64,000 bases of DNA from Eledone cirrhosa (Eukaryota). Position numbers and translations under genes: made by a program. Below, in pieces: positions 62,257 to 63,807 of the stretch; positions within the stretch are counted from its first letter, which is position 1; the number at the start of each line of letters is the position of its first letter. Below the pieces are notes generated by a model. It saw only the letters and a list, made by a program, of their open reading frames with translations, had not been told where the DNA came from and ran no database searches. Where the stretch lies: the NCBI GenBank assembly GCA_964016885.1, contig CAXHJY010001100.1, positions 62,001 through 126,000 of the forward strand, written 5' to 3'.

Positions 62257-62806
62257 CACACACACATATATATATATATATACATACACACACACACGTA
62301 TATATATATATATATATATATGGTGGCTGCCAACTCGTTTTCGAGTACGGCCACTACTTTATATCCATGTAGGAGAACCCCTACCGATGCGCTGAACGAA
62401 TGTGACTTTTTAGTCCAGCCAGCGACTTGAAAACTCTGGTACAAAGCCTACACTTGTGACCATTATTGACACATAGTGCAGGGCCCATGATACCATGTGA
62501 TGACAAGTGCAGAGAGATCTCCAGATATAAAGCAATGCCTGTGCTGTGAAGCTTTTATAGTGAGCAAAGGCACTGCACAAAGCCAGTCCCACTCTCTCAA
62601 CCAAGATGATATTTACCAAAAAGAAGAACAAGTCAACATCATTGGATACCATCAGGGTTGCAGGTGTTATATCAGAGTTTTCCTTCTCCTAGAATTCTGC
62701 CTTGGACGAAATAGAAATCATAAAAATATATATGAAGTTAATTTGAGCATAAAATAACATTATTGTAATTTTCAACTTTTTGTCTTGAAAAATATATCAT
62801 GTAGCG

Positions 62807-62870
<64 letters not shown>

Positions 62871-62909
62871 CACACACACATATATATATACATACACACA
62901 CACACACAC

Positions 62910-62979
<70 letters not shown>

Positions 62980-63088
62980 GCTACATGATATATTTTTCAA
63001 GACAAAAAGTTGAAAATTACAATAATGTTATTTTATGCTCAAATTAACTTCATATATATTTTTATGATTTCTATTTCGTCCAATTTTC

Positions 63089-63171
63089 TATTGAGTCGTC
63101 AAGTACGAAATTTGTAGAAATTAGTTTCTTTTCAACAAATTTCTACAAATTTCATACTCGACGACCCAATA
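63089..63171. mobile_element. Tiny TA-flanked inverted-repeat element (Tc1/mariner-like MITE)
   Basis: TA-TTGAGTCGTCAAGTACGAAATTTGTAGAAATT...AATTTCTACAAATTTCATACTCGACGACCCAA-TA. Confidence 0.5.
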
Positions 63172-63342
63172 CAATAAAGAACGTTTTATGATCTCGTTTT
63201 GGATGTAACTTGTACACACTTAATGTTTTCTTATTGCTAGTATGTACTCTGGTTTTACCGTCTACAAAGACATCTACACACACACACATGACACCACGCC
63301 TGTTCTATGTGTATATATATGTATATGTTTGTATATATACAC

Positions 63343-63484: not shown

Positions 63485-63524
<40 letters not shown>

Positions 63525-63720
63525 CGGAGGAAATGTGGTAATGAACCAGGTGGACCATAACGCACCAAAGTACTCAATACTTAGGGTAGTAGAGTGGGTA
63601 ATAGGAACGAGTAGGACCCCGACGGCTGAGCTCAAGCCGTTTCGACGGCTAATTCTGGACTCAGAGTCCAGAATTAGCCGTCGAAACGGCTTGAGCTCAG
63701 CCGTCGGGGTCTTACTCGTT

Positions 63721-63807
<87 letters not shown>

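What the first reader, a model, noticed from the sequence alone, without database searches (positions are those of the whole stretch)
62702..63083. Same inverted-flank structure at the second, independent insertion (site 2)
Seen: the copy at 62322-62704 is 5'-truncated at a different point and joins via TTG microhomology to a perfect ~112-bp arm (62702-62813) mirrored at 62972-63083. The spacer is a TA/CA unit like those on the other side of the element. The flank is unrelated to site 1, so two of two copies show the same unusual junction. Inference: a recurrent mechanism producing inverted rather than direct target duplications in (TA)n.
Basis: partly seen in the sequence, partly recalled or inferred. 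Interest (0 to 1): 0.7.

Follow-up and report, generated by a model that had tools for sequence, protein, structure and literature searches.

The report
Rare fold-back scar at SINE insertion
A short jumping-gene copy is joined to a perfect 112-base mirror image of the neighbouring DNA; about 1 in 100 copies of this repeat show this, and it is likely a rare repair scar made when a TA-repeat end folded back during insertion, not the element's normal way of inserting.

Summary
The structure is real. 62702-62813 is a 112/112 reverse complement of 62972-63083, found only here, joined through TTG to a 5'-truncated copy of a ~611-bp SINE-like retroposon (22,792 exact 3'-end matches in the genome). 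The inference that this family makes inverted rather than direct target duplications fails: only 2 of 181 other copies sampled by position have it, and 142 of 181 run straight into microsatellite. It does recur, though. Four more cases were found (L053, L294, L340, L362), all at full-length 5' ends, three with 0-1 nt between element and arm; 0 of 182 3' ends have it. The family also shows twin-priming inversions and template jumps. Best reading (0.65): during target-primed insertion the free (TA)n target end folded back, copied its own strand, then joined the cDNA. This matches the 'snap-back' junctions known for R2 and reciprocal-end inversions known for L1. Later break repair at (TA)n remains possible (0.25). 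No reads were available. Earlier scan notes describe Penelope-type hairpins in (TA)n here, a different class. A minor variant of a known by-product.

The parts
62322..62704 (-). 5'-truncated copy (3' 383 of 611 nt) of a high-copy non-coding SINE-like retroposon; 3' end abuts (TA)11 at 62321
   Evidence: 100% identical to L002 over 383 nt; no frame longer than 92 codons in the 611-nt reference copy
62702..62704 (+). 3-nt microhomology shared by element and inverted arm
62702..62813 (+). Inverted copy of the right flank (the inserted, templated arm)
   Evidence: 112/112 complementary to 62972-63083; found only here
62813..62970 (.). Spacer: (TA)26, a CA/TA unit, (TA)30; the two TA runs pair and leave a 44-nt loop (about 62871-62914), the inferred fold-back pivot
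62972..63083 (+). Original right flank, continuing into further genomic DNA; template of the arm (inferred)
62073..62321 (.). Left target array: three CA/TA units like the spacer unit, ending in (TA)11
63089..63171 (.). Separate 83-bp hairpin repeat (MITE-like), 5 nt beyond the arm; not part of the event
   Evidence: the same 83 bp sit in unrelated flanks in 28 of 28 loci examined
37877..38340 (-). Site 1: second copy of the element (3' 464 nt), 2-nt microhomology to its arm
38339..38634 (.). Site 1: perfect inverted duplication (127 nt unique arm) centred on (TA)18; the arm is the end of another high-copy repeat

Best explanation
This is a 5'-truncated SINE-like copy joined to a perfect inverted copy of its own flank, likely made during insertion when the free (TA)n target end folded back and copied its own strand. 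Shown: the element is a high-copy retroposon with a fixed 3' end at (TA)n/(TACA)n, variable 5' ends and twin-priming inversions; the arm is a local copy; the junction has 3 nt of microhomology. Inferred steps: (1) a nick in the TA array primes reverse transcription, which stops at nt 383; (2) the opposite target 3' end, ending in self-complementary (TA)n, pairs with the next (TA)30 run, looping out 44 nt, and is extended 112 nt; (3) the new end anneals to the cDNA end through TTG/CAA and fill-in completes the insertion. An equivalent route, with the cDNA end priming on the flank and copying back to the TA run, gives the same product and cannot be excluded. It is a by-product of about 1% or fewer of insertions and is predicted to have no function.
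For: Four further cases outside the window, all at the element's 5' side and at full-length ends: L053 and L362 (1 untemplated nt), L340 (1 nt shared), L294 (28-nt filler). 0 of 182 3' ends have it. At the exact full-length end 3 of 90 purine-triplet junctions have it, against 0 of 16 at internal position 383. Positional coincidence by chance: P about 2e-10 for 3 of 24 non-microsatellite, non-element junctions. The five events measured have 0 mismatches in the unique arm and a TA-type 3' flank; 2 of 94 copies in pure-TA context against 0 of 87 in other contexts (not significant alone). The same free target end is seen priming on the RNA: 8 of 12 self-inversions have breakpoints within 10 nt. 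An 18S rRNA fragment is joined at one 5' end (L433), so 5' joining is error-prone. Precedent: R2 'snap-back' onto nearby rDNA (PMC11371274, PMC11331408, passages); L1 insertions with inversions of genomic DNA at the reciprocal end (PMC11702581, passages).
Against: Site 2 itself is truncated, so truncation cannot be told from a later deletion at this locus. Both window cases are truncated, yet 0 of 95 truncated copies elsewhere showed the junction. Microsatellite-centred inverted duplications also occur without this element (8 in 1.15 Mb by the script's count, one of which, L294, is in fact element-linked). L340 and L362 were found by a search aimed at the full-length end. 0 of 30 pyrimidine-triplet and 0 of 30 'BB' junctions had it. 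A loose test (any hairpin near the junction) gives 3 of 295 copies against 61 of 3000 random positions, i.e. no excess. No empty allele was found. The partner LINE was not identified.
Confidence: 0.65

Rival explanations
1. Later break repair. A longer copy already sat in the TA array; the array broke, the flank end folded back and copied 112 nt, the other end was resected into the element, and the two joined at TTG. The element is then a bystander that marks the deletion end point.
For: Similar inverted duplications around microsatellites occur without the element, about 1 per 150 kb of fetched DNA. Site 2 has microhomology and a truncated element. L294 shows both ends folded back across TA, which suits a plain break.
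Against: Random resection would rarely stop at the exact 5' end, yet L053 (found without bias), L340 and L362 do. None at 182 3' ends, though intact 3' ends were the anchor, so 3'-deleted copies are under-sampled; 28 of 30 5'-anchored copies had intact 3' ends.
Confidence: 0.25
2. Assembly or read artefact: a fold-back chimera at an AT-rich hairpin on a small unplaced contig.
For: The window lies on a 192-kb contig; both copies in it show a junction that is rare elsewhere; no reads could be checked.
Against: The structure needs two strand switches, returns to unrelated DNA on both sides, has an asymmetric loop and a dinucleotide difference next to the TA run. The same junction occurs on chromosome-scale contigs C1 and C2. 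The one other copy in 92 kb of the same contig has an ordinary junction.
Confidence: 0.06
3. The palindrome is a pre-existing hairpin element (Penelope-type or MITE) that the SINE merely abuts.
For: The window is rich in hairpin repeats. Site 1's arm belongs to a repeat family that often has inverted pieces of itself. L252 and L290 look like such chance neighbours.
Against: Site 2's arm is found only here and the nearby hairpin repeat is separate. At site 1 both arms are identical while the closest other copies spanning the same 211 nt are at most 96% identical.
Confidence: 0.04

Closest known systems
R2 (PRINT) 'snap-back' 5' junctions (PMC11371274, PMC11331408; passages read)
   Same: The cDNA end is followed by reverse-complemented sequence, mostly of the element and less often of nearby target DNA; 'extra template' junctions occur alongside, as here.
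   Different: Engineered insertions at 28S rDNA in human cells; the authors have the cDNA end doing the priming. Here the events are in a genome assembly and pivot on a self-complementary (TA)n target.
L1 insertions with inversion of genomic DNA at the reciprocal end, and twin priming (PMC11702581; passages read)
   Same: Three insertions there carried inversions of genomic DNA at the reciprocal end (among 99 L1 and 235 pseudogene insertions); truncated insertions show more target rearrangement and microhomology.
   Different: L1 in cell clones at T-rich sites with discrete target duplications. Whether those three are inverted duplications like this one is in Fig. S9, which I could not see.
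Penelope-like elements with inverted 5'-truncated pseudo-LTR and (TA)n bias (PMC8557442; passages read)
   Same: Inverted repeats at insertions in (TA)n microsatellites.
   Different: There the inverted part is element sequence and is routine; here it is host flank and rare.
Templated snap-back insertions of polymerase theta end joining (recalled, no call)
   Same: A 3' end folds back, copies its own strand, unwinds and joins by short microhomology.
   Different: As recalled these inserts are usually shorter than 112 nt; no enzyme can be assigned here.

Membership tests
Non-autonomous non-LTR retroposon (SINE-like) | Fixed 3' end at a simple repeat, variable 5' truncation | tested here: met
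   Of 328 alignments 308 have the intact 3' end and 153 of these are 5'-truncated (set largely anchored on the 3' end); 28 of 30 5'-anchored copies have intact 3' ends.
Non-autonomous non-LTR retroposon (SINE-like) | No coding capacity, high copy number | tested here: met
   Longest stop-free frame 92 codons; 22,792 and 8,582 exact end matches.
Non-autonomous non-LTR retroposon (SINE-like) | Signs of target-primed reverse transcription | tested here: met
   Twin-priming geometry in 8 of 12 inversions and 15 of 16 in junction-enriched sets classed as short inverted 5' pieces.
SINE in the strict sense | tRNA/5S/7SL-derived Pol III head | tested here: inconclusive
   Rfam gave only two sub-threshold matches; ARAGORN and promoter boxes were not tested.
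SINE in the strict sense | 3' tail shared with a partner LINE | tested here: inconclusive
   43 tail-like matches in fetched loci belonged to this or related non-coding families; no LINE with this tail was seen. A resemblance of the 5' part to RTE leaders is recalled, not tested.
Snap-back / reciprocal-end inversion junction | Reverse complement of adjacent target DNA joined at the element's 5' end | tested here: met
Snap-back / reciprocal-end inversion junction | Formed in the same event as the insertion | tested here: inconclusive
   Supported for the class by exact full-length junctions; not decidable for site 2 without an empty or intermediate allele.
Penelope-like inverted pLTR | Inverted part consists of element sequence | tested here: not met
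   The arm is host flank found only here.
MITE / TIR element | Arms recur together at many loci as element ends | tested here: not met
   Arm 62972-63083 matched only itself and its mirror at high identity.

The most novel reading that the evidence does not exclude
In this genome self-complementary (TA)n targets let a cut end self-prime, so retroposons that insert into TA arrays steadily manufacture perfect palindromes of host DNA. The element-linked cases would be the traceable part of a general process behind thousands of microsatellite-centred inverted duplications (about 1 per 150 kb in the DNA fetched), with tens to a few hundred datable natural examples in this one family.
Probability: 0.3. 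Interest if true: 0.55.

Novelty: new variant of a known kind. Interest (0 to 1): 0.35.

Why it matters
If coupled to insertion, it shows in a natural genome a junction class known mainly from cell-culture R2 and L1 work, and points to the palindromic (TA)n target as the pivot. That gives a countable test of which end primes and when the second strand is cut, and a source of new perfect palindromes. It is not a new insertion mechanism and has no sign of function.

Tried and rejected
Sequencing runs: none was listed for 62672-62815, so no reads were laid; this is no evidence either way. Empty allele or haplotig: none among the scored candidates. Rfam on the element: nothing at threshold; its 5' 152 nt fold no better than shuffles (z -1.2), so no ribozyme is claimed. 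Partner LINE: neighbouring RT fragments (Pfam RVT_1 in L008) face the opposite way relative to the microsatellite and end differently; not assigned. L252 and L290 passed a loose hairpin test but lack a microsatellite centre and were dropped from the strict count; the ORF beside L252 looked like a Penelope endonuclease by recalled motif but had no Pfam match. Microsatellite polarity flips were few and uninformative (4 C-to-G of 127). 0 of 29 closest relatives of the site-2 copy had the junction by the narrow test. Whole-window repeat finder was swamped by microsatellites. Literature: six searches listed no paper on flank inversions at (TA)n-inserted SINEs; the library is partial. PMC12016303 and PMC2912911 (term look-ups) gave nothing relevant.

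Full report
Observation. The finding is accurate. 62702-62813 is the exact reverse complement of 62972-63083, 112 of 112. Pairing extends inward through two TA runs to 169 nt and leaves a 44-nt loop. The left arm starts within the last 3 nt of a repeat copy at 62322-62704. The spacer unit has the same repeat counts as a unit at 62073-62166 left of the element. A search of the genome with 62972-63260 found the arm only here and at its mirror among 40 scored candidates; the other hits were an 83-bp hairpin repeat just beyond the arm, which sits in unrelated flanks in 28 of 28 loci. So the arm is a local copy of host DNA. The window has two copies of the element and both have the junction.

The element. 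It is a 611-nt non-coding repeat (longest frame 92 codons) in a 3.0-Gb animal genome. The genome looks like an octopod by recalled repeats and by an earlier scan note; I did not test this. One end is fixed and abuts (TA)n or (TACA)n: 22,792 exact 31-mer matches, 2,655 after eleven TA units. The other end varies; 8,582 matches carry the exact full-length end. Self-inversions fix the direction: in 8 of 12 the inverted piece starts within 10 nt of where the direct piece stops, the twin-priming pattern for an RNA read on the minus strand. Some full-length ends are joined to foreign sequence, one to an 18S rRNA fragment. No Rfam family and no partner LINE was found.

How common is the junction? I scored 181 distinct copies taken in positional order on C1 (98 from the 3'-end pattern, 83 more from the TA-context pattern). 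142 run into microsatellite, 5 have self-inversions, 4 internal direct repeats, 3 are followed closely by another copy, 24 were unclassed, and 3 abut some hairpin. With a strict test (20 nt or more of unique arm, 95% identity, microsatellite centre, outer end within 60 nt) 2 of 181 pass, L053 and L294, both in pure-TA context (2 of 94 against 0 of 87); 0 of 182 3' ends pass. L252 and L290 passed only the loose test, which also fires at 2% of random positions, and were dropped. 0 of 29 closest relatives passed the narrow test. So inverted flanks are about 1% of junctions at most, not the rule.

Is it tied to the element? Of 109 full-length ends followed by three purines, 90 were examined and 3 have the junction (L053, L340, L362), with 1 shared or 1 untemplated base; 0 of 30 examined among 109 followed by three pyrimidines, 0 of 30 among 579 'BB' junctions, and 0 of all 16 matches at internal position 383. 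This suggests some tens of cases among 8,582 full-length copies (my extrapolation). Background microsatellite-centred inverted repeats have an outer end at about 4e-5 of positions, so 3 of 24 non-microsatellite junctions is far beyond chance. The five events measured have no mismatch in the unique arm; sites 1 and 2 and L053 have relatives at 99.5-100% identity, so arm and element can be of the same young age.

Mechanism. The product is what results if the target end opposite the cDNA, which ends in self-complementary (TA)n, pairs with the next TA run, copies 112 nt of its own strand and then joins the cDNA end at TTG/CAA (inference). At site 1 and L362 the centre is a single TA run; at site 2 the fold skips one 44-nt unit. 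Twin priming shows that this end is free to prime. The lack of homology at L053 and L362 suits target fold-back followed by blunt joining better than invasion by the cDNA end, but the two routes give one product. Later break repair explains site 2 alone equally well, and similar palindromes exist without the element (about 7 in 1.15 Mb), but it does not predict exact full-length junctions. Against my reading, both window cases are truncated while 0 of 95 truncated copies elsewhere have the junction, so two of two here is lucky; I attribute it to selection among some 47,000 windows. An artefact is unlikely because two switches are needed and C1 and C2 carry the same junction, but no reads were listed.

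Comparison. R2-based insertions show a 'snap-back' class in which the cDNA end primes on the cDNA or, less often, on nearby rDNA, plus 'extra template' junctions (PMC11371274 and PMC11331408, passages). L1 clones gave three insertions with inversions of genomic DNA at the reciprocal end (PMC11702581, passages; its supplementary figure was not seen). Penelope-like elements make inverted repeats of themselves in (TA)n (PMC8557442, passages); that is a different thing, though site 1's arm belongs to a repeat with such habits. Octopus repeat papers (PMC13282606, first third read; PMC9115989, passages) list RTE, Dong-R4, CR1, L1-Tx1 and many unclassified SINEs; the parts I read say nothing on junctions. 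Six searches listed no report of this junction at (TA)n.

Verdict. Real, recurrent but rare, most likely a fold-back scar of insertion (0.65). A natural, TA-pivoted variant of a known by-product. Interest 0.35.

Noticed in passing
L153, L354, L358, L359, L361, L366, L436; L165, L421, L444; L275, L384; L433: Full-length 5' ends joined to the same few GC-rich foreign sequences with 0-2 variable linker bases, and once to 18S rRNA: likely template jumps onto ends of abundant RNAs. The GC-rich donors had no Rfam match in the loci tested.
   Followed up: partly
window 37674-37866, 41041-41232, 59983-60622, 63524-63725: A ~200-bp repeat in (TA)n whose copies each end in their own hairpin; arms are more alike within a copy than between copies. 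Looks Penelope-like.
   Followed up: no
window 25078-25759, 27710-27927, 38505-38715, 58399-58728: A second (TA)n-bound repeat family with frequent inverted pieces of itself (6 of 39 other best hits had an inverted piece).
   Followed up: partly
window 63089-63171: 83-bp MITE-like hairpin repeat, often flanked by TA, high copy.
   Followed up: partly
L030, L070, L105, L130, L160 and others: A related non-coding family shares the 3' stem-loop layout with compensating changes and the same target preference.
   Followed up: no
L008/L208, L029/L209, L135, L168/L210: 5'-truncated RT-bearing LINE fragments in the same (TACA)n arrays, in opposite orientation to the SINE; Dong/R4-like by recalled motifs, RVT_1 by Pfam.
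   Followed up: partly
L011, L202, L215, L249, L264, L390: Young microsatellite-centred inverted duplications with no copy of this element at the outer end.
   Followed up: no
window 2040-3656 and 45035-45279: 29-bp satellite (56 copies) and a 33-bp near-perfect tandem (7 copies) cut from a common repeat.
   Followed up: no
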